DNA of 64,000 nt, taken from the NCBI GenBank assembly GCA_963798215.1, contig CAWCSP010000004.1:702159-766158 (forward strand), in the 5' to 3' direction. The notes under the pieces were generated by a model that saw nothing but the letters and a program-made list of their open reading frames with translations, did not search any database and had not been told where the DNA came from. The stretch is from an uncultured Acidobacteriota bacterium (GTDB taxonomy: Bacteria > Acidobacteriota > Thermoanaerobaculia > UBA5066). Position numbers and translations under genes: made by a program. Every line of letters begins with the position of its first letter. Position 1 is the stretch's first letter. Positions 18,808 to 58,658 of the stretch are shown here, in pieces.

Positions 18808-19860
18808 ATGCCCCGCGCCCTCGGACGCGACCGGCTCGGCGTCGAGACGGGCGGGCGTCTCCTCCTCGACTGCGACGTCCCGAAGGGGTGGCGCGGCCGC
18901 AGCCCGGCAACGCCGACCTCCGCCGAGCACCCGGGCAGCGCCGTGCGCTGGGAGGACGGGTTCTTCGAGGTCCTCGAGGTGCGGCCCCTCGGCGGCGAGG
19001 CCGTCCGGTACGTCCTCGCGCCCTGGGACGAGCGTCACGCGATGCGCGTCGTCGAGACCTACGGCGAAGAGGCGGAGGCCGCCCGCGCCTCCGAGCGCCG
19101 GGACGTCGCGCGGCGGGCGGACCGCCACGTCTACGTCCTCCTCGTCGCGCCGCTCGCCGGCTGCCTCCCGGGCGACGTCCAGGAACGGCTCGAGCACGAA
19201 CTCAACGTTCCCGCCCGCCTCCTGAGCCTCTCGTCGGCGCTCCCGCTGTGGGTGGCAGGTTGGGTCGCCCTCATCCTCCTCCTGGCCTCGTCGATGACCG
19301 GAGACAGCTCCGTCCCGGCGCCGCTCCTCGTGTTCGGCCTCTACCTGCTCGCTGAATCCACGGCCCGCCTCGCCGTGTGTGTCCTGCAGGGCCGGCCGAT
19401 CGGTACGCTCGTCGGAACGCTCGTCTACGAAGGCTGGCGGCGCCTCGGCTGGACGAAGGCGCGGGTGGAGGGGAGGCCGGTCCCGCGCGAGAGGGCCGTG
19501 TGGGAGGTCGAGTCCACGTCGGAGCAGAACGCCCTCGACCGGTACCACGTCCTCGAGCCGGCCGCGGGCCTCCTGCCCGTGGACGACCAGCTCCGTCTCG
19601 CCGAGCGCTACGGGTTCGACGGGATCCGGTGGGGTCGGACGGGCGCGATCTTCCTCCTCGTGATGTTCGGACCGCTCGCGGCGGCGTCCGTCTGGGGAGC
19701 CCTCGCCGTGCCCGAGCTCTCGGACGTCCCGAGAGTCGCCGTCTTCGGCGGCGTCGCCGCCGAGCAGGTCTTCAGGCTCCGGAAGCTCGCAAGCGGGCGC
19801 CTCGCGCCGAGCGTCCTCGGCCTCCTCGTTCGCCCGTTCGCACGGCCGCTTCTCGCCTGA
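18808..19860 (+). CDS. hypothetical membrane protein
   Basis: 350 aa with GC-rich third codon positions and several hydrophobic helices. No recognisable family. Confidence 0.45.
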   Translation: MPRALGRDRLGVETGGRLLLDCDVPKGWRGRSPATPTSAEHPGSAVRWEDGFFEVLEVRPLGGEAVRYVLAPWDERHAMRVVETYGEEAEAARASERRDVARRADRHVYVLLVAPLAGCLPGDVQERLEHELNVPARLLSLSSALPLWVAGWVALILLLASSMTGDSSVPAPLLVFGLYLLAESTARLAVCVLQGRPIGTLVGTLVYEGWRRLGWTKARVEGRPVPRERAVWEVESTSEQNALDRYHVLEPAAGLLPVDDQLRLAERYGFDGIRWGRTGAIFLLVMFGPLAAASVWGALAVPELSDVPRVAVFGGVAAEQVFRLRKLASGRLAPSVLGLLVRPFARPLLA

Positions 19861-19920: not shown

Positions 19921-21876
19921 TCACGTTGAGGGCCCCAACGTCGTGTCCTTGCCGAACGAGGGGGCCTCGATCGGCGTAGAGGACGCCGGTCGCACAGGCT
20001 GCCAGCCCTCCGCCGGCCAGCCGACTCCGGTCACGGACTCGCCAGCCTCGAGGAGGCTGGCAACAGAGACGGCCCAGCTCTCCACGTCGCTCGGGCGCGC
20101 GTCTCGCGCCTTGGCCAGCGCCACGTCGAAGAGCTGATCGACTTCCGGCGCAATCCACGGGAGAAAACGAGAGGGCGGAGGCGGAGGGGCGGAGAGCACA
20201 GTGAACATCACTTCGCCCATGTTCGTCCCCTCCACGAGACGTCTTCCCACCAGCGCCTCCCAGGCGACGGATGCCAGCGAGTAGAGGTCCGATCGGCTGT
20301 CGACGTCTGCGCACTGCAGCTGCTCCGGGGACATGTATGCGGGCGTTCCAACAGCGATGCCGGTCTGGGTCAGGCGCGCGTCGAATCGCGCGGACAGGGC
20401 AAGCCCGAAATCCAGGAGTTTCGCCTGGAAGCCGTCGGATTCGTGGACGAGGAAGATGTTGCCGGGCTTCACGTCCCGATGGATGACCCCTGCGCGGTGC
20501 GCGGCGCTCAATGCCGCTCCCGCCTGGCGGAGAAGGCGGGCGACCTGACGCGGCGTTCCCGCTCCGAACTCGGACAGAAGACCGGAAAGGTCGCGGCCCT
20601 GAAGCAGCTCCATGACGAGAAACGCGGAGCCTCCCTCGAGCTCGCCGGCGTCGAAGACCGCCGTCACCGCCGGGTGGTGGATGCGCGCGACCACCTTGGC
20701 TTCGCGCTGAAGCCGGAATCGCATCGCCGGATCGCCGAGAAACTGCGGCTTGATGATCTTGACGGAGACCTCGCGTTCGAGGGTCTCGTCGTGCGCGGCG
20801 AAGACGGTGCCCATCCCGCCCTCGCCGATCAGACTTGCAAACCGGTAGCGGCCCCCGACCCGGAACGGGAGCACGCGCGACGCGTCGAGCGTTGCGCCGT
20901 CGTCCACGCACTTTGCAGGTCCCGAATCGCCGCGGCCCGCGTCGGGAGTGCAGCGACCGCACTTCGGGCAGATCAGAAGCGTCTCGATGCCCCGCTCGTG
21001 CAGGGCGCGACGCGTCGTGGCCCTTGCCGCCTCGGCATCCGAGAGCTGCCGCTTCAGGGAACGCAGCTCGAAAGCGGTGCCGAGGTGGTGGGCGAGACCC
21101 GAAACGAGGCGCAACTGGGTTTCATCGAGCGGGCCGGCGCTGCCGTCGATGACGAGCGCGCCGCAGGTCTCCCCGGTCATTCCGACGACGGGAACGACCA
21201 TGAGACCCTCGGGCGCTGAAAACGTGACGTCGGACGAAGAGTCTCGCGACCGGAACACGGTTGGCGTCGCGCAGACGCCCGGCGCGATGGGTGAGAGGGC
21301 GTCGCCCTCGAGGGCCCAGACGCCGATTTCCTTCGCGCCGATCGTGCGGGCGACCTCGGACGCCATCGCGCCCGCCCACGCCGTCGTGTTTTCGAGCCGG
21401 CCGGACGAGGGCTCGGCCAGTTTGGCGATCTGCACCTGTGCGGCCCGAATCTGGACGTTTGCGCGTTCGAGGGCCGCATTCTTCGAGTCCGTCTCGCGCT
21501 GGAGACGCGCAACCTTGAGCTGGGTTTCGACGCGAACGACGACCTCTTCGGCCTGGAAGGGTTTCATGACGTAATCGACTCCGCCGGCACGAAAGGCCTT
21601 TACCTTGTCGAGGGGCTCGTCGAGAGCGCTGATGAAGATCACAGGGATGGCGCGGGTCGCCTCATCGGCCTTCAGATCGCGGCAGACCTCGAAGCCGTCC
21701 ATTTCCGGCATCGTGATGTCGAGCATCACGAGCTCGGGCCGCTGGACGCGGATCATCGCGAGGGCCCGTTTGCCCGTGTTCGCGGCGCGAACCCGGAAGC
21801 CGGCGTCCCTCAGGATGCCCGCGAGGAGCGACAGGTTGCTCGAGTTGTCGTCGACGAGAAAGACCTCTCCGGTCAT
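19921..21876 (-). CDS. response-regulator receiver + GAF-like + Ser/Thr protein kinase fusion
   Basis: N-terminal REC domain (FLVDDNSSNL...DITMPEMDGFEV), a CPKCGRC zinc-ribbon-like motif, and a Hanks kinase (HRDVKPGNIFL, DFGLA, GTPAYMSPE). Start ATG overlaps the HK stop (ATGA). Confidence 0.8.
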   Translation of the reverse strand: MTGEVFLVDDNSSNLSLLAGILRDAGFRVRAANTGKRALAMIRVQRPELVMLDITMPEMDGFEVCRDLKADEATRAIPVIFISALDEPLDKVKAFRAGGVDYVMKPFQAEEVVVRVETQLKVARLQRETDSKNAALERANVQIRAAQVQIAKLAEPSSGRLENTTAWAGAMASEVARTIGAKEIGVWALEGDALSPIAPGVCATPTVFRSRDSSSDVTFSAPEGLMVVPVVGMTGETCGALVIDGSAGPLDETQLRLVSGLAHHLGTAFELRSLKRQLSDAEAARATTRRALHERGIETLLICPKCGRCTPDAGRGDSGPAKCVDDGATLDASRVLPFRVGGRYRFASLIGEGGMGTVFAAHDETLEREVSVKIIKPQFLGDPAMRFRLQREAKVVARIHHPAVTAVFDAGELEGGSAFLVMELLQGRDLSGLLSEFGAGTPRQVARLLRQAGAALSAAHRAGVIHRDVKPGNIFLVHESDGFQAKLLDFGLALSARFDARLTQTGIAVGTPAYMSPEQLQCADVDSRSDLYSLASVAWEALVGRRLVEGTNMGEVMFTVLSAPPPPPSRFLPWIAPEVDQLFDVALAKARDARPSDVESWAVSVASLLEAGESVTGVGWPAEGWQPVRPASSTPIEAPSFGKDTTLGPST

Positions 21877-24470
21877 CGGGCGGTCCTCCCAAGTTGTTCG
21901 AAAAGGCTCATGAGCTCGTCGACCTGGAAGCGCGCCACGGCGTCCGCGAGAGCGTCCGCGAGGTGGGGATCCTGCGGACGGATCGACGCCACCGCCCGCG
22001 CCGCGGCTTCGTCATCGCCGATCTCGAGAGCGTCTCGAAGGGGCGCGAGAAGGTGACTCGGGAGCGCCGCGAGGCGCACCGCCGTGAGGACGCCGGAAGG
22101 CAAGGCCTCGGCGGGAGGCACCGCGGACTCGTAGGCGAAGCGGACGCCGAGGTGCACCGTGAGCTTTTCGAAGATGGCGGACTCGCGGAACGGCTTCGCG
22201 AGAAAGTCGTCGCAGCCGGCGGCGATGACGCCGGCGCGCTCGTGTTCGAGGGCGCTTGCGGACAACGCGATGATCTTCACGGGCGACGTTCCCGGCCGGG
22301 CTCGTCGTTCCTCGTCGCGGATGGCCCTCGTCGCCGTGAGTCCGTCCATCACGGGCATCCGCATGTCCATCCAGATCAGACGGGGCGTGAACTCCTTCCA
22401 GAGGGCCATGGCCTCCACGCCGTTCGCGGCCTGGCGAACTTCGAATCCGACGGACTCGAGGAGCTTCCCGAGGAGGATCCGGTTCTCCGAGACGTCGTCG
22501 ACGACGAGGATCCTTCGGTGTTCCTGCCCGGCTTCGAGGCCGACGACCCTTCGCTCCTCGGCGAGTTGCCGGGAGGTTTCTCCCTCCGGTGCAACCGGGA
22601 GATCGAGCGTCACCACGAACGTCGTCCCGCGGCCGCGCACGCTGTCGACGACGATATCTCCCTGCATGAGTCGCGCGAAGTTCCGGCTGATCACGAGGCC
22701 GAGCCCCGTGCCCTCCTTTGCCTTCTCTCCGGTCTCCGTCTGCGTGAATGGCTGGAACAGCGTAGCGACTTCCTCGGGCGTCATCCCGGGGCCGGTGTCC
22801 TCCACCTCGAAGCGGGCGCGGCCGTTCCGCCAGCCGGCCCGGAGCGTGATCCGCCCTTCCCTCGTGAACTTGATCGCGTTGCCGATCAGGTTGATGAGGA
22901 TCTGGCGCAGCTTGCTCTCGTCGCCGTACACGGTGCTCGGCGGTAGGTCGCCGGGCTCGAACGCCATCTCGAGGCCCTTTCCCTCCGCCCGCGTGCGTAA
23001 CATCTCGGACAAGTTCTCGAGGAAGGGCAGAAGGTCGAAGGCGACGGGTGTGAGGATGTCCCGCCCGGCCTCGATCTTGGACAGCGAGAGAACGTCGTTG
23101 ATCAGGCCAAGGAGGTGCTCGCCGCTCCGCACGATGATTCCGAGGTGCTCCCGATGGACGGACGGGAGGGCTCGGTCCCTGTTCATGAGTTGGGCGAACC
23201 CGATCACGGCGTTGAGCGGCGTCCGGAGCTCGTGGCTCATGTTTGCGAGGAACACGCTCTTTGCCTGATTGGCGGCCTCGGCCCGCTTCCGCTCCTCCTC
23301 CGCGAGAAGGCTGTGATCGTCGGCCGCCTTCCTCGCCACCTCCGCCTCGAGGAGCGCCTTGCGGAGCTCGCCTGTGCGCTCTTCGACCTTGCCTTCGAGG
23401 ATGGAGTACGACTCCTTCAGCCGCTGCGCCATGCTGTTGAACTGGCCGGCGAGCGCCTCGAGCTCGTCGCCCGTCTTCACCTCAATCGCCTGATCGAGCG
23501 TGCCGGCGCCGATGCGGGCGGCACCATCCTGAATGGCGCGGATCGGGTCCACCATTCGCCGCACGAGAAGCACGCTGGCCGTCAGGGCGAGGGCGACGCC
23601 GCCGAGGAGCAGGAAGGCCGTTCGCTGGAGCGCGCCGTAGATCGTCGCGAACGCCTCCCCGCTCGGCTGTTCCACGAACACGTACCACCCGAGGGATTCG
23701 ATCGGTGCCCACGCGGTCAGGACGTCAGCCCCCTGGGCGTCCCGCGCGATCAGGGCGGGCAGGCCGTCGACGCTCTCTTTCTTCTCGAGAGCGGCCTTCA
23801 CCTGGAGCAGCGACGAAAGGTCCCGCTTCTGCAACACCTGGCTGATGTCGGGGTGGGCGATCAACCGGCCCCGCGAGTCCACGGCGTAGGCGTGGCCCTT
23901 GCGCCCGATCTTTATCCGCGAGATCACGTCCAGGATGAACTTCAGGTTCACCTCGGCCGACGCGATGCCGGCCGACCCGCTCGCTCCGGCCATCGAGATC
24001 GTGACGTAGGGCTCGGTCTCCTTCCGGAAGTAAACGGGGCTGATGTAGGTCCGCCCCGACTTCGGCACCGTGAACTTCGGATCCTTCGAGTAGTCGTCTC
24101 CGCTCCCGACGACGTTCATGCCCAGCCGAGAAACTCGCAGCTGCTCCTTCCCGTCCAGGTCGAGCTGCGCGAGGTCCGTGATCGCCTGGACCTGGCGCAG
24201 GAGCTTGAGGTAATCGAAGCGGCGCTGCTCGATGGTGTAGGCGCCTTGCTGCGGCAGGAACAGCCAACCGATCTGGTCCTGGATCTCCTTTACGTACGCC
24301 TCGATGCGGTACGCGGCCGTAGACGCCTTCTCCCCCTGGAGACGGAGGAGTGCGAGCTTGTTCTCCTGGTAGTCGAAGTAGAGGCTGATGCCGCCACTCG
24401 CGAGAAGGACCAGCGTCACGAGGCCTGCGAAGTACGCGGCGTACTTGCGGAAGAGGGCGCTGCGGAGCAT
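21873..24470 (-). CDS. hybrid sensor histidine kinase / response regulator (periplasmic Cache-like sensor, HAMP, HisKA, HATPase, REC)
   Basis: 865 aa with 2 TM helices flanking a ~270-aa periplasmic domain; H-box ANMSHELRTPLN; N/G boxes; C-terminal REC (ILVVDDVSENR...MDMRMPVMDG). Confidence 0.85.
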   Translation of the reverse strand: MLRSALFRKYAAYFAGLVTLVLLASGGISLYFDYQENKLALLRLQGEKASTAAYRIEAYVKEIQDQIGWLFLPQQGAYTIEQRRFDYLKLLRQVQAITDLAQLDLDGKEQLRVSRLGMNVVGSGDDYSKDPKFTVPKSGRTYISPVYFRKETEPYVTISMAGASGSAGIASAEVNLKFILDVISRIKIGRKGHAYAVDSRGRLIAHPDISQVLQKRDLSSLLQVKAALEKKESVDGLPALIARDAQGADVLTAWAPIESLGWYVFVEQPSGEAFATIYGALQRTAFLLLGGVALALTASVLLVRRMVDPIRAIQDGAARIGAGTLDQAIEVKTGDELEALAGQFNSMAQRLKESYSILEGKVEERTGELRKALLEAEVARKAADDHSLLAEEERKRAEAANQAKSVFLANMSHELRTPLNAVIGFAQLMNRDRALPSVHREHLGIIVRSGEHLLGLINDVLSLSKIEAGRDILTPVAFDLLPFLENLSEMLRTRAEGKGLEMAFEPGDLPPSTVYGDESKLRQILINLIGNAIKFTREGRITLRAGWRNGRARFEVEDTGPGMTPEEVATLFQPFTQTETGEKAKEGTGLGLVISRNFARLMQGDIVVDSVRGRGTTFVVTLDLPVAPEGETSRQLAEERRVVGLEAGQEHRRILVVDDVSENRILLGKLLESVGFEVRQAANGVEAMALWKEFTPRLIWMDMRMPVMDGLTATRAIRDEERRARPGTSPVKIIALSASALEHERAGVIAAGCDDFLAKPFRESAIFEKLTVHLGVRFAYESAVPPAEALPSGVLTAVRLAALPSHLLAPLRDALEIGDDEAAARAVASIRPQDPHLADALADAVARFQVDELMSLFEQLGRTAR

Positions 24471-24608: not shown

Positions 24609-24905
24609 ATGGCAAAGGTGAAGATGACGTTCACGCTGGACGCCGAAACCGCCGCCAGTCTCCGGCAGGCTTCCGAAAGACTTTCCAGGCCCCAGAGCGC
24701 GGTCGTGAACGAGGCGATCCAGGACTTCAGCGAGCGGGTCGGACGCCTGAGCGAGCGCGAGCGGCTGCGGATGCTGGAGGTCTTCGACGCGGTCGTCGCG
24801 CCCCTGCCTTCAAGGTCGATGGCCCGGGCGAGACGCGAGATCGAGGAGATCCGGCAGGCGCGTCGCAGCGGCGGGCGGAGCGGCCGCTCGGACGCGCCCC
24901 GGTGA
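24609..24905 (+). CDS. vapB: ribbon-helix-helix antitoxin (VapB/CopG-like)
   Basis: 98 aa, MAKVKMTFTLDAETAASLRQASERL...; GTGA overlap with the downstream PIN gene. Confidence 0.6.
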   Translation: MAKVKMTFTLDAETAASLRQASERLSRPQSAVVNEAIQDFSERVGRLSERERLRMLEVFDAVVAPLPSRSMARARREIEEIRQARRSGGRSGRSDAPR

Positions 24906-25294
24906 TCCTGCTCGATACGTCCGTGCTCATCGAGGCCCTCGCGGGTCCCAAGCGGTCCGCGACCGCCCTGCGCGCTGCCATCGAGCGGGGCGAGCGGGTG
25001 CTTGTCCCGGCGCTCGTCCTGTACGAATGGTTGAGGGGCCCGAGAAGGCCCGAGGAGCTGAGAGCTCAGGAGGCGCTCTTCCCGCGAGAGTTCGCCATCC
25101 CGTTCGGCCCGCACGAGGCCGTGCTGGCCGCGAACCTTTACGCCAGAGTGCGAAGGGCGAGAGGCCGGGAGATCGACCTTGCGATCGCCGCGTGCGCGCT
25201 GGCCAGGGGTGCGGATCTCTGGACCCTCAACCTGGAAGACTTCCGGGACATTCCGGATCTGCGAGCCTCGGCGCCGGGCTCCGCTCGGCCCTGA
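24902..25294 (+). CDS. vapC: PIN-domain toxin VapC
   Basis: From GTG 24902: VILLDTSVLIEAL...; conserved acidic residues D5 and E/D ~100 (WTLNLEDF). Confidence 0.7.
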   Translation: MILLDTSVLIEALAGPKRSATALRAAIERGERVLVPALVLYEWLRGPRRPEELRAQEALFPREFAIPFGPHEAVLAANLYARVRRARGREIDLAIAACALARGADLWTLNLEDFRDIPDLRASAPGSARP

Positions 25295-25347: not shown

Positions 25348-26340
25348 TCACTCGATCACCTTGTCGGCCATCAGCAGCAGTTCCGGCGGAATCGTGAGGC
25401 CGAGCGCCTTCGCCGTTTTGTGGTTGATGACGAGCTCGATCTTCGTCGGCTGCTCGATGGGCAGCTCGCCTGGCTTCGAGCCCTTCAGGATCTTGTCGAC
25501 GAGACCTGCGGCCCGCCGGAACAGATCCACGAGACTCACGCCATAGGAAACGAGTCCGCCGGCCTCGACGCCCTCCGGATACGGGAGCATCACCGGAAGG
25601 CGGCTCTCCACCGAGAGCCTCCCGATCAGGCTCTGGAGGCCGAAAAACGTGCCGTCGTTCAGGACTAGAAGGCCCACAGGGGCCCCATGTGCCAGTCGCT
25701 CAAAGACACGCTCGATCTCTCCGGCGTTCCGCGCCTCAACAGGCATGACGCGCGTTCCGAAAGCCTTGGCGGATTCCCGGCAGCTGGCGAGCATTGCCGC
25801 ATGCGCCGGGGTATCGGGATTGACGAGTACGGCGATCGTGGACAGCCCGGGAGCAAGCGCCTTCAGAAGCTCGACGCGCTTCGGGACGACGTCCATCCCC
25901 ATTGAGGACAGCCCCGTCGTATTTCCGCCCGGCCGCGCGAGGCTTGGCACGACGTGGTTACCCACCGGATCGACCATTGCCGCAAAGACGATCGGAATCG
26001 TGGTCGTGGCTCGCTGGAGCGCAAGCGTCGGGGGCAGCGCGTGCGTGACGAGAACATCGGGCCGTATCGCGGTGAGCTCCGCCGCAAGTTTGGGGAGCCG
26101 CTCGAAGTGATCCTCCGCGAAGCGCGACTCGACGATGAGATTTCGGCCCTCGACGTAGCCGAGGTCACGCATCCCATTCAGCCAGGAGTCGTAGTAGACG
26201 TCGGGGTTCGTCGGCGTCGACCGAAATCGGGCGCCAAGAAACCCTACTCGATACACCTTCTCGGGCTTCTGTGCCGGCGCTGCCGACGCGGCTGAAAACA
26301 GGACGGCCCCCAAAGCCAGGAGGAGCGGCGCCCGCGTCAT
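25348..26340 (-). CDS. ABC transporter substrate-binding protein, ABC_sub_bind (PF04392-like) family, paralog 1
   Basis: 330 aa from ATG 26340; signal peptide; C-terminal motif ...LPIEQPTKIELVINHKTAKALGLTIPPELLLMADKVIE shared by all four copies. Confidence 0.75.
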   Translation of the reverse strand: MTRAPLLLALGAVLFSAASAAPAQKPEKVYRVGFLGARFRSTPTNPDVYYDSWLNGMRDLGYVEGRNLIVESRFAEDHFERLPKLAAELTAIRPDVLVTHALPPTLALQRATTTIPIVFAAMVDPVGNHVVPSLARPGGNTTGLSSMGMDVVPKRVELLKALAPGLSTIAVLVNPDTPAHAAMLASCRESAKAFGTRVMPVEARNAGEIERVFERLAHGAPVGLLVLNDGTFFGLQSLIGRLSVESRLPVMLPYPEGVEAGGLVSYGVSLVDLFRRAAGLVDKILKGSKPGELPIEQPTKIELVINHKTAKALGLTIPPELLLMADKVIE

Positions 26341-27341
26341 TCGATCACCTTGTCGGCGAGGAGCAGCAGCTCGGGCGGGATCGTGAGCCCGAGCACCTTC
26401 GCCGTCTTCCGGTTGATGACGAGCTCGAATGCAATTGGCTGCTCCACGGGCAGAGTCGCCGGCGTGGCACCGCTCAAGATCCGATCGACGAAATGGGCCA
26501 GTCGTTTCCACTGTTCGGGGAGCTTCGCGCCATAGGACATGAGGGCGCCGGCCTCAACGTGCTCCTTGATGGCGGCCAGGGTCGGGATCCGGTGCGCGAG
26601 CGTGAACTCGCCGATCTGCTTCGCGTGAGCCTGGAGCATCGCATCCCAGACGATGTACATGCCGTCGGGCTTGCCGCGGGCCACGCGTTTCAGCGCGGGG
26701 CCGATCTCGCTGCCCGCCTTCGCTTCCGCGACTGGCTGAACCGCCATTCGGGCCGCGGACGCGGCGGTCCGGAACTCGCTGAGCGAGAGCACGTTCGCGG
26801 GGTTCGTCGGATTGAACAGAACACCGACTCTCGAGAGCGCGGGAACGACCTCGCGGAAGAGCTGCAGGCGCTTCGCGATGAGTTCGACGCCGAGCGCGGC
26901 CACGCCGGTGATGTTGCCGCCCGGACGCCCGAGGCTCTGTACGAGCCCAAGGCGCACCGGGTCGAGCCCGACACCGACCATCACGACGGGGATCGTGCTA
27001 GTCGCTTTCTGGGCGGCGCGGACCGATGGTGTGCCGCTGGCGATGATCACGTCGACATTCCGACGGACGAGCTCGGCCGCGCGCCCGGGAAGCTCGTTGA
27101 CATTGGCGTCCGACGCCTGGTACTCGACGACGTAATCTCGCTGCTCGACACGGCCGACTTCGAGCATCCCCTGCCGGAAGGCGCCCAGCAGGCCGGCGTC
27201 GACACCGTAGCCGAGGATGCCAATGCGAGGGATCCCCCTGGAGGGCTGCGCCGTCGTCTCCTGCGCGTCAAGTGTCCGAGAGAGTTGCAGGATCAAGATC
27301 GCGAAGCACAACGCTGGCAGCCAACGGCGGAGTGGCTTCAT
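26337..27341 (-). CDS. ABC transporter substrate-binding protein (same family), paralog 2
   Basis: 334 aa from ATG 27341; ATGA overlaps at both ends; ...LPVEQPIAFELVINRKTAKVLGLTIPPELLLLADKVIE. Confidence 0.75.
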   Translation of the reverse strand: MKPLRRWLPALCFAILILQLSRTLDAQETTAQPSRGIPRIGILGYGVDAGLLGAFRQGMLEVGRVEQRDYVVEYQASDANVNELPGRAAELVRRNVDVIIASGTPSVRAAQKATSTIPVVMVGVGLDPVRLGLVQSLGRPGGNITGVAALGVELIAKRLQLFREVVPALSRVGVLFNPTNPANVLSLSEFRTAASAARMAVQPVAEAKAGSEIGPALKRVARGKPDGMYIVWDAMLQAHAKQIGEFTLAHRIPTLAAIKEHVEAGALMSYGAKLPEQWKRLAHFVDRILSGATPATLPVEQPIAFELVINRKTAKVLGLTIPPELLLLADKVIE

Positions 27342-28333
27342 TCGATAAGCTTGTCCGCGAGGACGACGAGGTCGAACGGGATTGTGAGCCCCAGCGCCCT
27401 CGCGGTCTTCCGGTTGATGAACAGTTCGAACTTCGTGGGCTGCTCCACGGGGAGGTCGCTCGGCTTCGCTCCGCGCAGGATCTTGTCGACGAAGACGGCA
27501 GCACGCCGGTAGTTCTCGGTCCGATTCGGCCCATAGCTCATCAGCCCGCCGGACTCCGCGTACTCTCGCAGGCCTCCGATTGACGGCAAGTGGTTCTTCG
27601 ACGCGAGGTCCGCGATCTCCTGGCGCTGCTGGATGAGGAAGCCGTCCGTGACCCACGAGACCGCCGAGACTCGCTCGCGAGCGAAAACGGCGAACGCGCC
27701 CTCGATCTCCAGCGGAGTGCTGACCGGGACGTCGAGGACTTTCAGGTTTCGCGAGCTGGCGGCCTCCTGCAACTTCTTGATTGCCGGTGCCGAGAAGGGG
27801 TTCGTCGGGTTCCAGATGACGCCGAGCCGTGCGATGTGCGAGACCATCTCGCCGAGCAGCTCCATCTGCTTGAGATTCGTCTCGCTGGCGACGATCGAGA
27901 TCCCGGTGACGTTCCCGCCGGGCTGGGAGAGGCTCGCAACGAGGCCGTTCGTGACCGGATCGCCGGCGGCCCCGAAGACGATCGGGATCGAGTGTGTGGC
28001 CTTCATCGCCGCGAGCACCGAAGGCGTGCCGTCGGCCGTGACGATGACGTCCACGGGCATCGCGACAAGCTCCCGCGCGAGCGCCGCGAGCCGTTCGTAA
28101 TCCCCCTGCGCGTATCGCCATTCGATCTTGAGGTTCCTGCCTTCCACGTAGCCGAGCTCCCGCATGCCCTGAGGGAAGCCCCCGTGGTAGTCGCCTTCCA
28201 GCGTCGCGGGCCTCCGGCGCGCGGACAGGAATCCCACGTGCCAGACCTTGCCGTCCTTCTGGGCGAGAGCGCGGAAGGGGGCTGCCGCCGCCGCGGCGCC
28301 GAGCGCGAGGAGGAGGTCCCGTCGCGTCCTCAC
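27338..28333 (-). CDS. ABC transporter substrate-binding protein (same family), paralog 3
   Basis: 331 aa from GTG start; Tat-like [17 protein letters not shown] signal; ...[38 protein letters not shown]. Confidence 0.75.
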   Translation of the reverse strand: [331 protein letters not shown]

Positions 28334-29322
28334 TCGATCACCTTGTCCGCGAGGACGAGAAGGTCGGGCGGAATCGTGAGGCCGAGGGCTTTAGCCGTTT
28401 TCCGGTTGATGACCAGGAAGATCTTCGTCGGCTGCTGGACTGGAAGATCCGCGGGACTCGCGCCGCGCAGGATCCTGTCGATGTAGTCCACGACGCCTAT
28501 CCAGGTTTCGGCCGGCCTCGAGCCGTAGTTCAGGAGGCCCCCGAACAGGGCGTAGTCCCAGAAGCCCGAGATCGAGGGCAACCGATGCTTCGCGGCGAGT
28601 CCGGCGAACTGTTGCGCCTGCTGGTTCAGGAACGAGTCCACCGTCCACATGAGCGCCTGGGCCTTGGCCTTTTCGGCCGACAAGAAGGCGTTCACGATCT
28701 CAACGGGGGCCAGGGCCCCGAACGGGAGCACCTGGACGCCCATCTTCAGACCTGCTTTTCGTACCTCTTCGACGAGAGACGGGTGCGCCTCGTTCGCCGG
28801 GTTGAAGACGAGGGCGACGCGCGCGAGGCCGGGCGCCATCCGGGTCAGCAGCTCCAATTGCTTTCCCATCGTCTCGCTCAGGAGAAGGGCGACGCCGGTG
28901 ACATTCCCGCCGGGATGGGCCATCGACTTCACCAGCCCTCGCGCCACGAGGTCAGTGCCTCCGACGAACACGATCGGAACCGAGCTCGTCGCGTTCTCAG
29001 CCGCGCGAATCGACTGCGTCCCGTCTGTGACGATGATGTCGACGCGCGCCTTCACGAGGTCCGCAGCCAGCCCGGGGAGTTTGGCGTAGTCCCCTCCGGC
29101 GAAGCGCCACTCGAAAACGACGTTCCGTCCCTCGACGTAACCTCGTTCCCGAAGACCGCGGGAGACGTTGCCGTACGGGTCCGTCTCGAGCGACTCGGGT
29201 CGGCGGCGGGAAACGAGGATGCCGACTCGCCAGACCTTTTCTGGATCCTGGGCCAGCGACTGAAGCGGCCGGGATGCGAGTGCAAGTCCGAGGACCCGGA
29301 AGAGATCCCGCCGCGTCTTCAA
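28330..29322 (-). CDS. ABC transporter substrate-binding protein (same family), paralog 4
   Basis: About 330 aa from TTG 29322 (LKTRRDLFRVLGLALA signal); ...LPVQQPTKIFLVINRKTAKALGLTIPPDLLVLADKVIE. Upstream of the TTG the frame belongs to the porin gene. Confidence 0.7.
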   Translation of the reverse strand: MKTRRDLFRVLGLALASRPLQSLAQDPEKVWRVGILVSRRRPESLETDPYGNVSRGLRERGYVEGRNVVFEWRFAGGDYAKLPGLAADLVKARVDIIVTDGTQSIRAAENATSSVPIVFVGGTDLVARGLVKSMAHPGGNVTGVALLLSETMGKQLELLTRMAPGLARVALVFNPANEAHPSLVEEVRKAGLKMGVQVLPFGALAPVEIVNAFLSAEKAKAQALMWTVDSFLNQQAQQFAGLAAKHRLPSISGFWDYALFGGLLNYGSRPAETWIGVVDYIDRILRGASPADLPVQQPTKIFLVINRKTAKALGLTIPPDLLVLADKVIE

Positions 29323-29350: not shown

Positions 29351-30493
29351 TCAGAAGTAGAAGACCTGAAACTGGATCGTGAACTCGTTCGTCGGTGCCG
29401 CCGAATCGAGCTTGGGAACGAGGCGCGTGTAGGCAGCGGTAACCCTGAGATACTGGCGGTGCACGAGGCAATGGAGGCCGGCCTGGTATCGGCGCGAACT
29501 CTTCGAGTCGTTGGCCGCGTCGGAGTACCTCTGGGTATGAAACTGCAGGAACGGCTGCAGCTTGGCCGCCGCGAAGTAATAGCCTGCCTCGACGAGATAG
29601 TCATTCTGCCGCGGCAGCGACGCGAAGCGAGTTTCTCCGTCGTAGTGGAACCAGTTGATGCTGCCGGTTGCCGCGCCACTCCCGCTTACCGGGATGTCGG
29701 CGAATACATCGGCTGCGTAAGCGTGATAGTCGCCCTGGTTGTCCGAGCCGACGCCGATGGCGACGATTTTTCGGTCTCCGTAATTCGACCCCTGGTAGAC
29801 GTAACCCTGGTGGAGGTAGCCGGTCTCGGTGTCGAAGAGCTCGTATTGAACCCGGGCGGCATAGCGGTAGGAGTTCTTGACGCCGGGCAGCCGCTCCCCG
29901 GAGAAGACGCCGGCCCGATACTGCAGATGATCGTTCAGGAAGAAGCCGGTGGCCCCGAACCCGGTATCGCGAAAGGCATTGCTCTGCGTCTGGGCGTTCG
30001 ATTGGAGTGAGGTCGGGCCGGTATCCAGCGTGAGGGTGGTCGATCCCGCCTGCATGACGTTTCGGCCCAGGGGCACGTAGAACATGCCGCCCAGGAGCTG
30101 GAGCTCCGGGGCCACGTGCCACATCCCGAACGCATCGATGATGCTCGGGGTCGTGGAAAGAGCCGCGGACGACGCCTTGTTCTTTCCGAGGTTCGTGTCG
30201 TCCATCTGGTAGAAGAATGTCACGTCTTCGACGACCTGCCCTCCGGCAAGAAAGCGCCAGCGCCGAATGAATAGGTTCTGGGCGTAACCGGCGGTTGTCG
30301 TTCCATCGGCACTTGCCAGCTGCTGCCAATCGGCCCACGCCTGGAGCTGGACGCCGAGCTTGATGAACGTCGTGTCGCTCGCCTTGATGATCGCCTGTGC
30401 ATGCGCCCTGCCGGCAGGGGCTAGAAGACCCGTGGCCGCCAGGAGTGCTCCGAGATACGCAGGAACTCTCCGCGATAGCGCTGCGTTCGTCAC
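29351..30493 (-). CDS. outer-membrane beta-barrel porin
   Basis: 380 aa from GTG start with strong SD (GGAGGAGAGG); signal peptide; alternating amphipathic beta strands; C-terminal ...FTIQFQVFYF with terminal Phe. Confidence 0.6.
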   Translation of the reverse strand: MTNAALSRRVPAYLGALLAATGLLAPAGRAHAQAIIKASDTTFIKLGVQLQAWADWQQLASADGTTTAGYAQNLFIRRWRFLAGGQVVEDVTFFYQMDDTNLGKNKASSAALSTTPSIIDAFGMWHVAPELQLLGGMFYVPLGRNVMQAGSTTLTLDTGPTSLQSNAQTQSNAFRDTGFGATGFFLNDHLQYRAGVFSGERLPGVKNSYRYAARVQYELFDTETGYLHQGYVYQGSNYGDRKIVAIGVGSDNQGDYHAYAADVFADIPVSGSGAATGSINWFHYDGETRFASLPRQNDYLVEAGYYFAAAKLQPFLQFHTQRYSDAANDSKSSRRYQAGLHCLVHRQYLRVTAAYTRLVPKLDSAAPTNEFTIQFQVFYF

Positions 30494-30513: not shown

Positions 30514-31338
30514 TCAGAGGTCGATGCCGAATCGAGCCCCGAACGCGAGGGCGACGAGCCCCGCACGCGTCGATGCGCCCGTCTTCTGAAACGCGGACAT
30601 CAGGTGCTTGTGTACCGTGTCGGCGGAAACCGACAGGCGGGCTGCGATTTCCTTGTTCGTGAGGCCCTGTGCGGCGAGGCCCACGACGCGCCCCTGGGTG
30701 GCGGTCAGGCCGCAGCGTGCCTGCAGGTGCTCGGTGTCGAGCTCGAAGCTCCCGTCCGCGGGCACGAAGAAGAAGATCCGGGAAGAGTCCGGGTCGGGCG
30801 CGCCTCCGGGATGCCGGGGCGCTGCCGAGCCCGGCACGATTCGGACCGTGCGATTCATAACCGGGACCTCGACCGGCTCGTCGGAAGCCGCAGAGCGCGC
30901 CGCAACGTAGAGAACGGCTTGCGGCACTGCCGGGCCCCCGAAGAGCCGTCCGGCTGCGGGGTTTCCCGCGAGGTAACGGCCGTTGCCGTCGACGGCGATC
31001 GCCGGCACCGGGAGGCAGTCGAGCGCCGCTTCGAGGGCGCGCGTGTGGCGCGAGGCTTCTTCGATAGCCAGCCGCGCCGCTTTCAGATCCTCCAGGAGAG
31101 GCAGCACCATGCGCCCGGCCTCGCGCTCGCTGTCGGTGAAGGAAGCGGAATCGTCCAGAGCCTGCGGCCCATGTTCCGCAAGGCGCTCCCAGAGGCGTCG
31201 TACCGCGTCGAGGCGCATGACGTCCAGTTGTCCGAGGGCGTACGGCCGGCCCGTAATCCGTCCCCCATCTGACTTTGTGCGGCTCGCATTGTAGCGCCCT
31301 CGAACCGTCCGACTCGCGCTTCGAACCCGATGCTCCAT
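30514..31338 (-). CDS. LuxR-family transcriptional regulator (N-terminal PAS-like sensor, C-terminal LuxR HTH)
   Basis: C-terminal HTH LTATQGRVVGLAAQGLTNKEIAARLSVSADTVHKHLMSAFQKTG. Start is uncertain (ATG 31338 or ATG 31218). Confidence 0.7.
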   Translation of the reverse strand: MEHRVRSASRTVRGRYNASRTKSDGGRITGRPYALGQLDVMRLDAVRRLWERLAEHGPQALDDSASFTDSEREAGRMVLPLLEDLKAARLAIEEASRHTRALEAALDCLPVPAIAVDGNGRYLAGNPAAGRLFGGPAVPQAVLYVAARSAASDEPVEVPVMNRTVRIVPGSAAPRHPGGAPDPDSSRIFFFVPADGSFELDTEHLQARCGLTATQGRVVGLAAQGLTNKEIAARLSVSADTVHKHLMSAFQKTGASTRAGLVALAFGARFGIDL

Positions 31339-55232: not shown

Positions 55233-56247
55233 ATGGCGACAATCTGGTACGACAAGGACGCCGACATCTCCCGCCTCAAGGGGCGGACGGTCGCGATCAT
55301 CGGTTACGGCAGCCAGGGGCACGCGCACGCCCTGAACCTCCGCGACAGCGGGGTCTCGGTCGTCGTGGGCCTCCACGCGACGTCGAAGTCCGCCGCGAAG
55401 GCGAAGGCCGAGGGGCTGACGGTCCTGCCGGTCGACGAGGCCGCGAAGCGCGCGGACGTCGTCATGATCCTGACGCCCGACACGGGCCAGAAGAAGCTCT
55501 GGGACGAGTCGATTGCGCCGCACATGAAGGCCGGCAAGACCGTCATGTTCGCGCACGGCTTCAACATCCGCTTCGGCCAGATCGTGCCCGCCGCACGACG
55601 TGGACGTGTCGATGGTCGCGCCGAAGTCGCCGGGCCACCGCGTCCGCGAGCTGTACGTGGAGGGCGCGGGCACGCCGGCGCTCCTCGCCGTCGAGCAGAA
55701 CGCGACCGGCCACGCGCGCGAGGACGCGCTGGCCTACGCGAAGGCGCTCGGGACGACGCGCGCCGGCGTCCTCGAGACGACGTTCGCCGAGGAGACGGAG
55801 ACGGACCTCTTCGGCGAGCAGGCCGTCCTCTGCGGCGGCACGTCCGCGCTCGTGAAGGCCGCGTTCCAGACGCTCGTCGACGCGGGCTACCAGCCGGAGG
55901 TCGCGTACTTCGAGTGCCTCCACGAGCTGAAGCTCATCGTCGATCTCATGTACCGCGGCGGTCTCAACTACATGCGTTACTCGATCAGCGACACGGCCGA
56001 GCACGGCGACTACACCGCGGGTCCGCGCATCGTGACGGACGCGACCCGGCGCGAGATGAAGAAGATCCTCGAGGAGATCCAGGAGGGCGTCTACGCCGAG
56101 AACTGGATCGCCGAGAACCGAGCGGGCCGCCCGAACTTCGAGGCGACGCGCGAGAAGGAGCGGACCCAGCTCCTCGAGACCGTCGGCGCGGAGCTGCGCG
56201 AGAAGATGCCGTTTCTCCATCCCGTCCGCATCGGGAAGGTGGCCTGA
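55233..56247 (+). CDS. ilvC: ketol-acid reductoisomerase; one frameshift in this sequence
   Basis: The N-terminal 118 aa ([36 protein letters not shown]...[12 protein letters not shown]) are in frame 0. The remainder ([22 protein letters not shown]...) is in ORF 55600..56247. The shift is at CCCG 55587-55590. Confidence 0.85.
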
Positions 56248-56248
56248 C

Positions 56249-58654: not shown

Positions 58655-58658
58655 GGCT

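What the first reader, a model, noticed from the sequence alone, without database searches (positions are those of the whole stretch)
19921..24470. Hybrid sensor kinase translationally coupled to a REC-GAF-Ser/Thr-kinase fusion
An 865-aa hybrid HK (periplasmic Cache-like domain, HAMP, HisKA, HATPase, REC, and a C-terminal extension) stops with a TGA that overlaps the ATG of a 651-aa protein. That protein has an N-terminal receiver domain, a GAF-like middle with a CPKCGRC zinc-ribbon-like motif, and a complete Hanks-type kinase.

This suggests His-Asp phosphorelay directly gating eukaryotic-like Ser/Thr phosphorylation, an architecture that is uncommon and poorly characterised.
Basis: partly seen in the sequence, partly recalled or inferred. 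Interest (0 to 1): 0.5.

Follow-up and report, generated by a model that had tools for sequence, protein, structure and literature searches.

The report
Two-component relay feeding a Ser/Thr kinase
A membrane sensor histidine kinase and, overlapping it by four bases, a response regulator whose output is a eukaryote-like Ser/Thr protein kinase form a conserved pair that probably turns a periplasmic binding-protein signal into Ser/Thr phosphorylation; this wiring is common in uncultured soil bacteria, and I found no experimental study of it.

Summary
On the minus strand an 865-aa hybrid HK (dCache–HAMP–HisKA–HATPase–REC plus a 95-aa tail) ends in TGA inside the ATGA that starts a 651-aa REC–GAF–Zn-knuckle–Hanks kinase. 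All catalytic residues are intact.

Comparative evidence supports a functional link:
- The pair recurs, with the overlap, at 48–69% identity.
- Metagenomic proteins fuse the same dCache–HAMP sensor (62–69% identical) directly to the same GAF–Zn–kinase module (59%), skipping the relay.

- The sensor is always preceded by tandem "orphan" PF04392 solute-binding-protein genes. The window has four, and six of six sampled loci have them, whatever the output.
- Orthologues at 69% identity carry a C-terminal TIGR02999 ECF sigma factor, which points to the likely substrate class.
- The HK has no HPt. Its tail is a conserved helical bundle with no invariant His, so the phosphotransfer route is unresolved.

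REC–kinase fusions are not rare in metagenomes, but I found no characterised example. Verdict: a real, coherent system and a new variant of a known kind. Interest is moderate to good.

The parts
21873..24470 (-). Hybrid sensor histidine kinase gene, 865 aa. TM1 is about res 14-32, the periplasmic region about 33-284, and TM2 about 285-303.
   Evidence: ORF; Pfam; hydropathy; identical protein P0121 in public assemblies.
23619..24374 (-). Periplasmic dCache_1 sensor domain (res 33-284). It is 54-73% identical to the sensors of kinases with other outputs, which is more conserved than the catalytic core.
   Evidence: Pfam dCache_1 at 66.8 bits; identity comparison.
23412..23570 (-). HAMP domain (res 301-353).
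   Evidence: Pfam, 52.1 bits.
22596..23261 (-). HisKA (res 404-469, with H413) and HATPase_c (res 516-625) catalytic core.
   Evidence: Pfam at 74 and 101 bits; motif positions.
22161..22511 (-). Receiver domain fused to the HK (res 654-770; D658, D702, S737, K759).
   Evidence: Pfam, 81.3 bits.
21876..22160 (-). Conserved C-terminal tail of the HK (res 771-865). It is a disordered linker followed by a five-helix bundle. It is not a functional HPt, because it has no invariant His.
21873..21876 (-). ATGA start/stop overlap between the HK and the REC-kinase gene. GGAGG lies at 21885-21889.
   Evidence: Sequence read.
19921..21876 (-). Response-regulator/Ser-Thr kinase fusion gene, 651 aa, cytosolic (no TM segment).
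   Evidence: ORF; Pfam; hydropathy; identical protein P0001.
21529..21864 (-). Receiver domain (res 5-116). D9, D10, D53 and K105 are invariant in the family.
   Evidence: Pfam, 94.4 bits; alignment A3.
21412..21528 (-). Signalling helix (res about 117-155) linking REC to GAF. In the direct-fusion proteins the same helix continues from HAMP.
   Evidence: AF2 helix 2-30 of the model; alignment to P0019.
20995..21411 (-). Compact GAF-fold domain plus a long exit helix (res about 156-294). W167 is invariant.
20887..20982 (-). Cys knuckle / zinc-ribbon-like hairpin (res 299-330): C303-x2-C306-x2-C309 ... C323-x2-D326.
   Evidence: Invariant and near-invariant columns; short beta-strands in the model.
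20089..20847 (-). Hanks-type Ser/Thr protein kinase domain (res 344-596) with the full catalytic motif set.
   Evidence: Pfam Pkinase at 125.8 bits; NCBIfam PknB-type at 246 bits; motifs.
19924..20088 (-). C-terminal tail of the kinase (res 597-651) with an invariant G619-W620 motif. In 69%-identical orthologues an ECF sigma factor is fused beyond this point.
   Evidence: Alignment A3; P0010 architecture.
25348..29322 (-). Four tandem PF04392 (ABC_sub_bind) solute-binding-protein genes with signal peptides and 4-nt overlaps: 25348-26340, 26337-27341, 27338-28333 and 28330-29322. They are 40-50% identical to each other. No transporter genes lie nearby. They are proposed co-sensors of the dCache domain.
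   Evidence: Precomputed Pfam for the same locus; ORFs; pairwise identities. The same family lies upstream of this sensor in six of six sampled loci.

Best explanation
This is a two-gene signalling unit. Together with the four solute-binding-protein genes upstream, it forms one sensory pathway.

Step 1 (inferred): one or more of the exported PF04392 binding proteins capture a periplasmic ligand and dock on the dCache domain of the membrane HK, in the manner of LuxP-LuxQ.

Step 2 (domains shown, activity inferred): the signal passes through TM2 and HAMP and sets the autophosphorylation of H413.

Step 3 (inferred from operon structure, conserved synteny and fusion proteins): the phosphoryl group reaches D53 of the receiver of the downstream protein. 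It may go directly from H413, with the HK's own receiver (D702) acting as a competing sink or modulator. Alternatively it may go via an unlinked HPt.

Step 4 (inferred): receiver phosphorylation is passed through the coiled-coil signalling helix into the dimeric GAF-helix-Zn-knuckle module. This changes the arrangement or activity of the Hanks kinase domains, so that they autophosphorylate (T503/T505) and phosphorylate substrates.

Step 5 (inferred from orthologues only): the likeliest substrate class is a TIGR02999/ECF43-like ECF sigma factor that needs Ser/Thr phosphorylation to bind RNA polymerase. In this organism it would be encoded elsewhere.

In evolutionary terms, this is a sensor-to-Ser/Thr-kinase one-component protein that has been split by insertion of a His-Asp relay, or the reverse.
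For: Anatomy: all domains and catalytic residues are intact.

Coupling: ATGA overlap plus GGAGG.

Conserved pairing:
- L003 (kinase 48% identical): HK sensor 70%, HK core 76%, HK REC 71% and kinase-REC 77% identical, against kinase domain 47% and middle region 35%. The overlap is again 4 nt.
- L085/86 (Thermoanaerobaculia MAG, 69%): the same 865-aa HK abuts the REC-kinase.
- L094: a different (Y_Y_Y) hybrid HK overlaps a 52%-identical REC-kinase by 4 nt.
- L008, L062 and L067: hybrid-HK ORFs lie next to REC-kinase ORFs in Vicinamibacterales and Gemmatimonadota.

Rosetta-stone fusions: P0019, P0024 and P0027 align with HK res 1-377 at 62-69% identity. P0019 aligns with kinase res 97-642 at 59%. 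The fusions occur on several independent contigs.

Modular output: the helix-GAF-Zn module precedes the kinase in about 80 of the top 120 clusters. Its inputs are REC, dCache-HAMP, 7TMR-DISM, Y_Y_Y or GAF.

SBP link: PF04392 genes lie directly upstream of this sensor clade in the window, L003, L085, L089, L091 and L097, whether the output is REC-kinase, a direct kinase fusion or REC-cyclase. No ABC permease or ATPase genes lie beside them. The periplasmic domain is more conserved (54-73%) than the kinase core (40-44%).

Substrate hint: P0009, P0010, P0011 and P0017 are REC-GAF-Zn-kinase proteins with a C-terminal ECF sigma (PF07638 at 181 bits, TIGR02999 at 215 bits). ECF43-type sigmas are activated by Ser/Thr-kinase phosphorylation (PMC8999054, PMC13147305). 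SBP-to-receptor signalling, including to dCache domains and to one Ser/Thr kinase, is established (PMC8050422).
Against: No biochemical step is shown.

Phosphotransfer route: the HK is a hybrid without an HPt. Its tail has no conserved His. No HPt was found among the window genes scanned, so the route from HK to D53 is undefined. One relative sits in an operon with an HK-REC-Hpt protein (L087). Others carry an N-terminal HisKA-only domain before the REC (P0036 and similar). Both cases suggest that some family members use a multi-step relay.

Pairing is not universal: three of the nine family contexts sampled are orphans with no adjacent HK (L093, L095, L096).

Substrate: no ECF sigma, PP2C phosphatase or FHA protein is encoded in the window, so the substrate is extrapolated from orthologues.

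SBP link: in the window a VapBC pair on the other strand separates the SBP array from the HK, so the two are not one transcript here. SBP-dCache contact rests on synteny alone.
Confidence: 0.6

Rival explanations
1. Classical four-step phosphorelay. The HK phosphorylates only its own receiver (D702). An HPt protein encoded elsewhere carries the phosphate to D53 of the kinase protein.
For: Hybrid HKs normally need an HPt step (general knowledge; summarised in PMC5007285). A 49%-identical REC-kinase lies in an operon with an HK-REC-Hpt protein (L087). Related dCache HKs at 45% identity carry an Hpt domain (P0171). Several family members have a HisKA-only domain in front of the REC that could act as a built-in phosphotransferase (P0036).
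Against: No HPt is present in the HK, in the kinase protein or among the window genes scanned. None appears in the syntenic loci L003 and L085. The tight gene overlap and the high co-conservation of HK core and kinase-REC (76% and 77%) fit a direct partner at least as well.
Confidence: 0.25
2. The dCache domain senses a small molecule directly. The PF04392 genes are ordinary transport binding proteins that merely happen to be neighbours.
For: Most characterised dCache domains bind ligands directly in the membrane-distal module (PMC8050422). The three PF04392 proteins with structures listed in the SBP survey bind aromatic amino acids, as expected of uptake proteins (PMC10443332). In the window the SBP array and the HK are separated by an oppositely oriented VapBC pair.
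Against: Six of six loci with this sensor clade have PF04392 genes immediately upstream, often with overlapping stop/start codons, across three different output types. No ABC permease or ATPase genes lie next to the arrays. The periplasmic domain is unusually conserved.
Confidence: 0.2
3. The two genes are co-expressed but belong to separate pathways. The kinase's receiver would be served by another HK or act only as a phosphate sink, and the kinase would be controlled by its GAF domain binding a cytosolic ligand.
For: GAF domains often bind small molecules. One third of the sampled family members are orphans. Variants of the kinase module exist with quite different N-terminal inputs.
Against: Fusion proteins join this very sensor to this very kinase module. 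The HK/REC-kinase adjacency is conserved down to 48% identity and recurs with a second sensor type. The GAF is minimal, with four strands, so a canonical pocket is doubtful.
Confidence: 0.1

Closest known systems
LuxP-LuxQ (Vibrio) and other SBP-stimulated sensor kinases (TorT-TorS, HptA-HptS, ChvE-VirA)
   Same: The binding-protein gene lies next to a membrane hybrid HK whose periplasmic domain is dCache or dCache-like. The binding protein rather than the free ligand is proposed to be what the sensor recognises (PMC8050422). TorS and LuxQ are among the best NCBIfam partial matches of the HK.
   Different: The SBP family here is PF04392, which does not appear in that review's text (searched by accession). 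There are arrays of 3 to 7 or more paralogues instead of one gene. The HK scores far below the equivalog cut-offs of TorS and LuxQ (327 against 676 bits; 245 against 1200 bits). It has no HPt and no LuxU-like partner. The output is a Ser/Thr kinase, not a transcription factor.
GlnH-GlnX-PknG (Mycobacterium / Corynebacterium)
   Same: An extracytoplasmic SBP signals through a membrane transducer to a cytosolic Hanks kinase. That kinase carries a Cys-rich metal-binding (rubredoxin-like) element next to the kinase domain (own knowledge for the rubredoxin domain). The review calls it the only characterised SBP-stimulated Ser/Thr kinase (PMC8050422).
   Different: In PknG the transducer GlnX is a non-enzymatic four-helix-bundle protein that binds the kinase. 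Here the transducer is a true histidine kinase and the coupling goes through a receiver domain. There is no TPR domain. There is no detectable sequence relationship beyond the kinase fold.
PknT-EcfP and PknS-EcfK (ECF43-type sigma factors activated by Ser/Thr phosphorylation)
   Same: Orthologues at 69% identity have a TIGR02999/PF07638 ECF sigma fused to the kinase. In the fused sigma, a QPSA stretch sits where I place the sigma-2.2 'DAED' acidic motif, so a Ser would occupy the position of the phospho-acceptor. That placement is my own reading of the sequence and no alignment was made. The concept is from PMC8999054.
   Different: In the known systems the kinase is a membrane receptor kinase and the sigma is a separate neighbouring gene. 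Here the kinase is cytosolic and driven by a receiver domain. In this window no sigma gene is present.
Yeast Sln1-Ypd1-Ssk1 to Ssk2/22 MAPKKK pathway; plant ETR1 to CTR1
   Same: A His-Asp system controls a Ser/Thr kinase (own knowledge; Sln1 to MAPK is mentioned in PMC1262709).
   Different: In eukaryotes the response regulator and the kinase are separate proteins that interact non-covalently. Here the receiver and the kinase are one polypeptide, and the system is bacterial.
Cyanobacterial dual kinases (HstK family: STK-GAF-HisKA-HATPase)
   Same: Hanks kinase, GAF and two-component parts are combined in one signalling unit (PMC2176072; PMC1262709).
   Different: The order and logic are reversed. 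In HstK the Ser/Thr kinase is N-terminal and the HK is the C-terminal output. Here the HK is upstream and the Ser/Thr kinase is the output of a receiver.
Response regulators with enzymatic outputs (PleD/WspR REC-GGDEF, CheB, RpfG, REC-PP2C)
   Same: A receiver with a complete acid pocket drives an enzyme domain through a helical linker. NCBIfam aligns res 1-143 with PleD.
   Different: The output is a Hanks kinase preceded by a GAF and a Zn knuckle. In the held literature I found no member of this output class with experimental data.

Membership tests
Hybrid sensor histidine kinase (HisKA class) | DHp domain with phospho-accepting His in an H-box | tested here: met
   HisKA at 74 bits; H413 in SHELRTP.
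Hybrid sensor histidine kinase (HisKA class) | HATPase_c with N, G1 and G2 boxes | tested here: met
   101 bits; N531, DTGPGM at 558, GTGLGL at 587.
Hybrid sensor histidine kinase (HisKA class) | Fused receiver with DD / D / S-T / K pocket | tested here: met
   81.3 bits; D658, D702, S737, K759.
Complete His-Asp-His-Asp phosphorelay | HPt domain with a conserved phospho-accepting His, fused or adjacent | tested here: not met
Response regulator (REC + output) | Receiver with conserved D-D, phospho-Asp, S/T and K | tested here: met
   94.4 bits. D9, D10, D53 and K105 are invariant in 16 family members; S83 is present in the window protein, and the aligned position is S or T in all 16 by my reading of the alignment.
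Response regulator (REC + output) | Phosphorylation by the cognate HK | not testable with these tools
   Supported only indirectly, by gene overlap, synteny and fusion proteins.
Hanks-type Ser/Thr protein kinase | Catalytic motifs: G-loop, VAIK Lys, alphaC Glu, HRD, Asn, DFG, APE | tested here: met
   Pkinase at 125.8 bits. K373, E392, H466-R-D468, N473, D489-F-G and E518 are invariant or nearly so.
Hanks-type Ser/Thr protein kinase | Ser/Thr phosphotransfer activity | not testable with these tools
GAF domain | Sequence match above the Pfam gathering score | tested here: not met
   GAF_2 19.6-21.2, GAF_3 19.4-21.4 and GAF 15.5-17.1 bits, against cut-offs of 28.6, 27 and 22.4.
GAF domain | GAF fold | tested here: met
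Zinc ribbon / rubredoxin-like knuckle | Four conserved metal ligands in two knuckles | tested here: inconclusive
   C303, C306 and C323 are invariant; C309 and D326 are at least 90% conserved. Short beta-strands are predicted. The second knuckle is C-x2-D rather than C-x2-C, and some homologues lack C309. Metal binding was not tested.
SBP-dependent sensor kinases | SBP gene adjacent to the sensor gene and not to transporter genes | tested here: met
   Six of six loci of this sensor clade. No permease or ATPase Pfam families next to the arrays.
SBP-dependent sensor kinases | Physical SBP-sensor domain interaction | not testable with these tools
   Would need binding assays or complex prediction.
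Ser/Thr-kinase-activated ECF sigma systems (ECF43-like) | TIGR02999/PF07638-type sigma gene adjacent to or fused with the kinase | tested here: not met
   tblastn of the P0010 sigma domain against the window gave only noise, E at least 3. The feature is met in the orthologues P0009, P0010, P0011 and P0017.

The most novel reading that the evidence does not exclude
The window holds one wiring state of an undescribed modular signalling family. In this family a highly conserved dCache sensor reads out arrays of orphan PF04392 binding proteins as combinatorial co-receptors. The same helix-GAF-Zn-Hanks-kinase output is attached either directly to the sensor or through an inserted His-Asp relay. The kinase's dedicated substrate is a phosphorylation-dependent ECF sigma factor, which is fused in relatives. 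That would chain three of the four 'pillars' of bacterial signalling into one linear pathway: two-component system to Ser/Thr kinase to ECF sigma. It would also add a new SBP family and a new response-regulator output class to the experimentally tractable list.
Probability: 0.35. Interest if true: 0.7.

Novelty: new variant of a known kind. Interest (0 to 1): 0.55.

Why it matters
Two-component systems and Hanks-type kinases are usually treated as parallel signalling systems that meet only through cross-talk.

Here the link is hard-wired: a receiver domain is the input of a Ser/Thr kinase. Nature also supplies the controls, namely the same sensor fused directly to the same kinase, and the same kinase fused to a sigma factor.

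That makes three open questions directly testable in a single family:
- how receiver phosphorylation switches a Hanks kinase;
- why a His-Asp relay is inserted into a one-component design;
- whether ECF sigma phosphorylation is the endpoint.

The finding also suggests a signalling role for PF04392 binding proteins. These occur in large paralogous arrays without transporters, and PF04392 is absent from the text of the review that compiles known SBP-receptor systems.

Tried and rejected
1. Genome-collection scan for relatives. The full-length alignment used generic kinase motifs, so the 80 loci returned were mostly unrelated Ser/Thr kinases. Only L008, L062 and L067 were informative. The source organism was not recovered and its taxon remains inferred from the nearest named homologues (Thermoanaerobaculia MAGs).

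3. Search for an ECF sigma, a second Ser/Thr kinase, PP2C, FHA or HPt in the window. None was found. Window stretches 38.2-41.1 kb, 5.7-6.6 kb and a few short ORFs were not scanned.

4. Promoter and terminator consensus scan around the pair. It found no sigma-70-like promoter and no terminator relevant to the pair, which is uninformative in a 70% GC organism.

5. Second Rosetta-stone case. The Y_Y_Y sensor of the L094 HK is only 26-41% identical to the sensors of the direct Y_Y_Y-kinase fusions. This is supportive but much weaker than the dCache case.

6. Literature. No paper in the held library describes a characterised REC-Hanks-kinase protein or links PF04392 arrays to sensor kinases. Galperin's response-regulator census could not be opened. 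My recollection that it lists REC-kinase fusions is therefore unverified.

7. Cluster-member look-up gave no organism names.
Full report
**Observation.** The junction is GGGAGGACCGCCCGATGACC. The ATG of the second gene overlaps the TGA of the first by four bases (21873-21876), and a GGAGG lies 8 nt upstream at 21885-21889.

Pfam assigns these domains to the first protein: dCache_1 (res 91-267), HAMP (301-353), HisKA (404-469), HATPase_c (516-625) and Response_reg (654-770). The last 95 residues are unassigned. The second protein has Response_reg (5-116, 94 bits) and Pkinase (344-596, 126 bits), with only sub-threshold GAF matches between them. NCBIfam gives partial, sub-threshold matches to TorS, BarA and LuxQ for the HK, and to PknB-type kinases plus PleD/PhoB receivers for the second protein.

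Hydropathy shows two TM segments in the HK (about 14-32 and 285-303) and none in the kinase protein. Every catalytic residue is in place:
- HK: H413, N531, G1, G2, and D658/D702/S737/K759.
- Kinase protein: D9/D10/D53/S83/K105, K373, E392, HRD466-468, N473, DFG489-491, T503/T505 and E518.

**The middle region and the Cys motif.** I cut out residues 125-345 and aligned them with 48 homologous segments. W167, C303, C306 and C323 are invariant. C309 and D326 are conserved in at least 90% of sequences.

So "GAF-like" is right at the fold level, although the sequence is below Pfam thresholds. The Cys motif is a separate knuckle after the GAF exit helix, immediately before the kinase domain. Metal binding is plausible but untested. 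The second half-site is C-x2-D rather than C-x2-C.

It is therefore not a functional HPt, and its role is unexplained. A similar stretch follows the true Hpt domain of a related HK, P0171.

**Are the two genes one system?** Four lines of evidence say yes.

First, there is the start/stop overlap with a Shine-Dalgarno sequence.

Second, the synteny is conserved.
- In L003 (a MAG, kinase 48% identical) an 883-aa dCache hybrid HK overlaps the REC-kinase by 4 nt. The HK sensor, HK core, HK receiver and the kinase's receiver are 70-77% identical to the window. The GAF region and kinase domain are only 35% and 47% identical.
- In L085/L086 (annotated Thermoanaerobaculia bacterium) an 865-aa HK abuts a 69%-identical REC-kinase.
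- In L094 a different hybrid HK (Y_Y_Y sensor) overlaps a 52%-identical REC-kinase by 4 nt.
- Outside this family, hybrid-HK ORFs lie next to REC-kinase ORFs in Vicinamibacterales and Gemmatimonadota MAGs.

Third, there are fusion proteins. P0019, P0024 and P0027 (870-889 aa) align with HK residues 1-377 (dCache plus HAMP) at 62-69% identity. P0019 then continues into the signalling helix, GAF, Zn knuckle and kinase at 59% identity to residues 97-642 of the window kinase. HisKA, HATPase and both receivers are simply missing. These fusions are seen on many independent contigs.

Fourth, the helix-GAF-Zn-kinase unit is a reusable output. It appears behind REC, dCache-HAMP, 7TMR-DISM, Y_Y_Y/Reg_prop or GAF inputs. 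An exhaustive profile search finds 135 50%-identity clusters at E <= 1e-30 among 1.84 billion representatives. About a dozen of these have the length and module position of the REC type, judged by eye from the table.

Not all members are paired. Of nine family contexts sampled:
- four have a hybrid HK directly upstream;
- one sits in an operon with an HK-REC-Hpt protein and a REC-GGDEF (L087);
- one follows a single-domain receiver and another kinase (L004);
- three are orphans.

**What feeds the HK.** Upstream of the HK, on the same strand, are four tandem PF04392 (ABC_sub_bind) genes: 25348-26340, 26337-27341, 27338-28333 and 28330-29322. They have signal peptides and 4-nt overlaps, and are 40-50% identical to one another. 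A porin-like gene and a LuxR-type regulator lie further upstream. No ABC permease or ATPase gene is nearby.

The same arrangement recurs wherever this sensor clade is found:

| Locus | PF04392 genes | Sensor protein and output |
|---|---|---|
| L003 | three upstream, one downstream | dCache hybrid HK with REC-kinase |
| L085 | at least six | dCache hybrid HK with REC-kinase-sigma |
| L089 | at least seven upstream, three downstream | dCache-HAMP-GAF-HK, followed by REC and REC-cyclase genes |
| L091 | four | dCache-HAMP-GAF hybrid HK, with a REC-cyclase nearby |
| L097 | one, overlapping the sensor gene | direct dCache-kinase fusion |

The periplasmic part of the sensor (res 33-284) is 54-73% identical across these proteins, whereas the catalytic cores are 40-44% identical. 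That is unusual for an extracytoplasmic domain, and it is consistent with a conserved protein partner.

SBP-dependent activation of dCache or dCache-like sensor kinases is established (LuxPQ, HptAS and others). The review that compiles these systems states that GlnH/GlnX/PknG is the only characterised SBP-stimulated Ser/Thr kinase, and its text does not mention PF04392 (PMC8050422). In a survey of SBP structures, the three PF04392 proteins listed bind aromatic amino acids (PMC10443332).

I therefore infer that the binding proteins are co-sensors. This rests on synteny only. In the window an oppositely oriented VapBC pair (RHH_3 plus PIN, 24609-25294) has been inserted between the array and the HK.

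**What the kinase acts on.** Nothing in the window answers this. I found no ECF sigma, PP2C, FHA or HPt gene.

However, four orthologous clusters (P0009, P0010, P0011, P0017; 68-70% identical) extend the same protein with a C-terminal ECF sigma factor: PF07638 at 181 bits and TIGR02999 at 215 bits, against a cut-off of 126. In P0010 a QPSA stretch sits where I place the sigma-2.2 "DAED" motif (sequence; my reading, no alignment was made). That would put a Ser where ECF43-type sigmas carry the phospho-acceptor that Ser/Thr kinases such as PknT and PknS modify to permit RNA-polymerase binding (PMC8999054; PMC13147305). Another relative is followed by a STAS-domain gene (L096). Sigma-factor control is thus the best available guess for the output, at moderate confidence.

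**Mechanism.** The shown facts are the domain order, intact active sites, gene overlap, conserved pairing, fusion proteins, the GAF fold and the SBP synteny.

The inferred steps are these. SBP-ligand complexes act on the dCache domain. HAMP controls H413 autophosphorylation. The phosphoryl group reaches D53. The receiver acts through the coiled-coil helix, which is the same helix that HAMP feeds in the fusions, on a dimeric GAF-helix-Zn unit. That unit sets kinase activity.

The weak point is the His-to-D53 route. A hybrid HK without an HPt may transfer directly from H413 to the downstream receiver, with its own receiver acting as sink or modulator. Alternatively it may use an unlinked HPt. 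Relatives with an Hpt-bearing HK (L087), or with a HisKA-only domain in front of the receiver (P0036 and six similar clusters), show that multi-step relays exist in the family.

The pair of architectures (sensor-kinase fusion versus sensor-HK plus REC-kinase) is a clean example of the idea that two-component systems arise by inserting HK and receiver modules into one-component proteins (Ulrich et al. 2005, as summarised in PMC5007285).

**Novelty and verdict.** All parts are known domain families, and REC+Pkinase proteins are frequent in environmental data: 87 of the 120 best clusters carry both, by my count from the Pfam column. The held literature yielded no characterised REC-Hanks-kinase and no report linking PF04392 arrays to sensor kinases. 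I recall from memory that response-regulator censuses list such fusions, but I could not open that paper.

I rate this a new variant of a known kind. It is a two-component pathway whose output is a GAF/Zn-gated Ser/Thr kinase, with a probable multi-SBP input and a probable ECF-sigma endpoint. Interest is moderate to good, because the natural fusion variants make the mechanism directly testable.

The source organism was not identified. The nearest named homologues are Thermoanaerobaculia (Acidobacteriota) MAGs, and the window is about 70% GC.

Noticed in passing
window 24609-25294 (+): A VapBC-type toxin-antitoxin pair lies between the SBP array and the HK, on the opposite strand. It consists of an RHH_3 antitoxin (24609-24905) and a PIN toxin (about 24902-25294). 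The pair is absent from the syntenic loci L003 and L085, where the last SBP gene abuts the HK, so it looks like an insertion that split an ancestral operon.
   Followed up: partly
window 29351-30493 (-) and 30514-31338 (-): Directly upstream of the SBP array, on the same strand, is a 380-aa protein with a signal peptide and a C-terminal ...FQVFYF, which is porin-like. It has no Pfam hit. Next to it is a LuxR/GerE-type regulator. The porin-like protein has no counterpart in L003, L085, L089 or L091 by tblastn.
   Followed up: partly
L085 / L086 8001-10583 (P0010); also P0009, P0011, P0017: These orthologues of the window kinase (68-70% identical) carry a C-terminal TIGR02999 ECF sigma factor. 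They are single polypeptides with receiver, GAF, Zn knuckle, Hanks kinase and sigma factor. I found no description of this architecture.
   Followed up: partly
L089 and L091 (loci of P0133 and P0188): The same dCache sensor clade with arrays of 4 to 7 or more PF04392 genes is wired here to GAF-containing HKs. REC-guanylate/adenylate cyclase genes and cNMP-binding protein genes lie nearby. The SBP-array/dCache input module therefore feeds cyclic-nucleotide outputs in other lineages.
   Followed up: partly
P0036, P0038, P0041, P0048, P0059, P0065, P0087: These family variants have an N-terminal HisKA (DHp) domain, with no HATPase hit in the precomputed Pfam lists (confirmed by Pfam scan for P0036), placed before the receiver: DHp-REC-GAF-Zn-kinase. 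The lone DHp could be a built-in histidine phosphotransferase.
   Followed up: no
P0047, P0052, P0053, P0055, P0066, P0070 (about 805-823 aa): Kinase-REC-kinase proteins: two Hanks kinase domains flank one receiver, without the GAF-Zn module (read from the P0047 and P0052 sequences; the others are inferred from similar length and hit pattern).
   Followed up: no
L096 9961-10302: A STAS-domain gene (anti-sigma-antagonist type) immediately follows an orphan REC-GAF-kinase gene. It is a possible kinase substrate of the partner-switching kind.
   Followed up: no
window 18808-19860 (+): A 350-aa predicted membrane protein with no Pfam match, convergent with the kinase gene. Its 3' end is 60 nt from the kinase stop codon.
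   Followed up: no
window about 27167-27341, compared with L001 2540-2710: The ENA assembly of the same locus (L001) is offset by one base relative to the window upstream of the second SBP gene. Its gene caller truncated that gene to 276 aa. The window reads through from a signal peptide (MKPLRRW...) to give 334 aa. This is probably an assembly indel.
   Followed up: partly
window 55600-59633 (+) and 60206-61864 (-): A branched-chain amino-acid biosynthesis cluster (KARI, HMGL-like synthase, Iso_dh, class IV aminotransferase) and an NrfA-type cytochrome c552 nitrite reductase. This is ordinary metabolic context, unrelated to the finding.
   Followed up: no
window 19924-20088 (kinase res 597-651): An invariant Gly-Trp (G619-W620, usually GWP) motif lies about 25 residues after the kinase domain in all 16 aligned family members. 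Its function is unknown.
   Followed up: no
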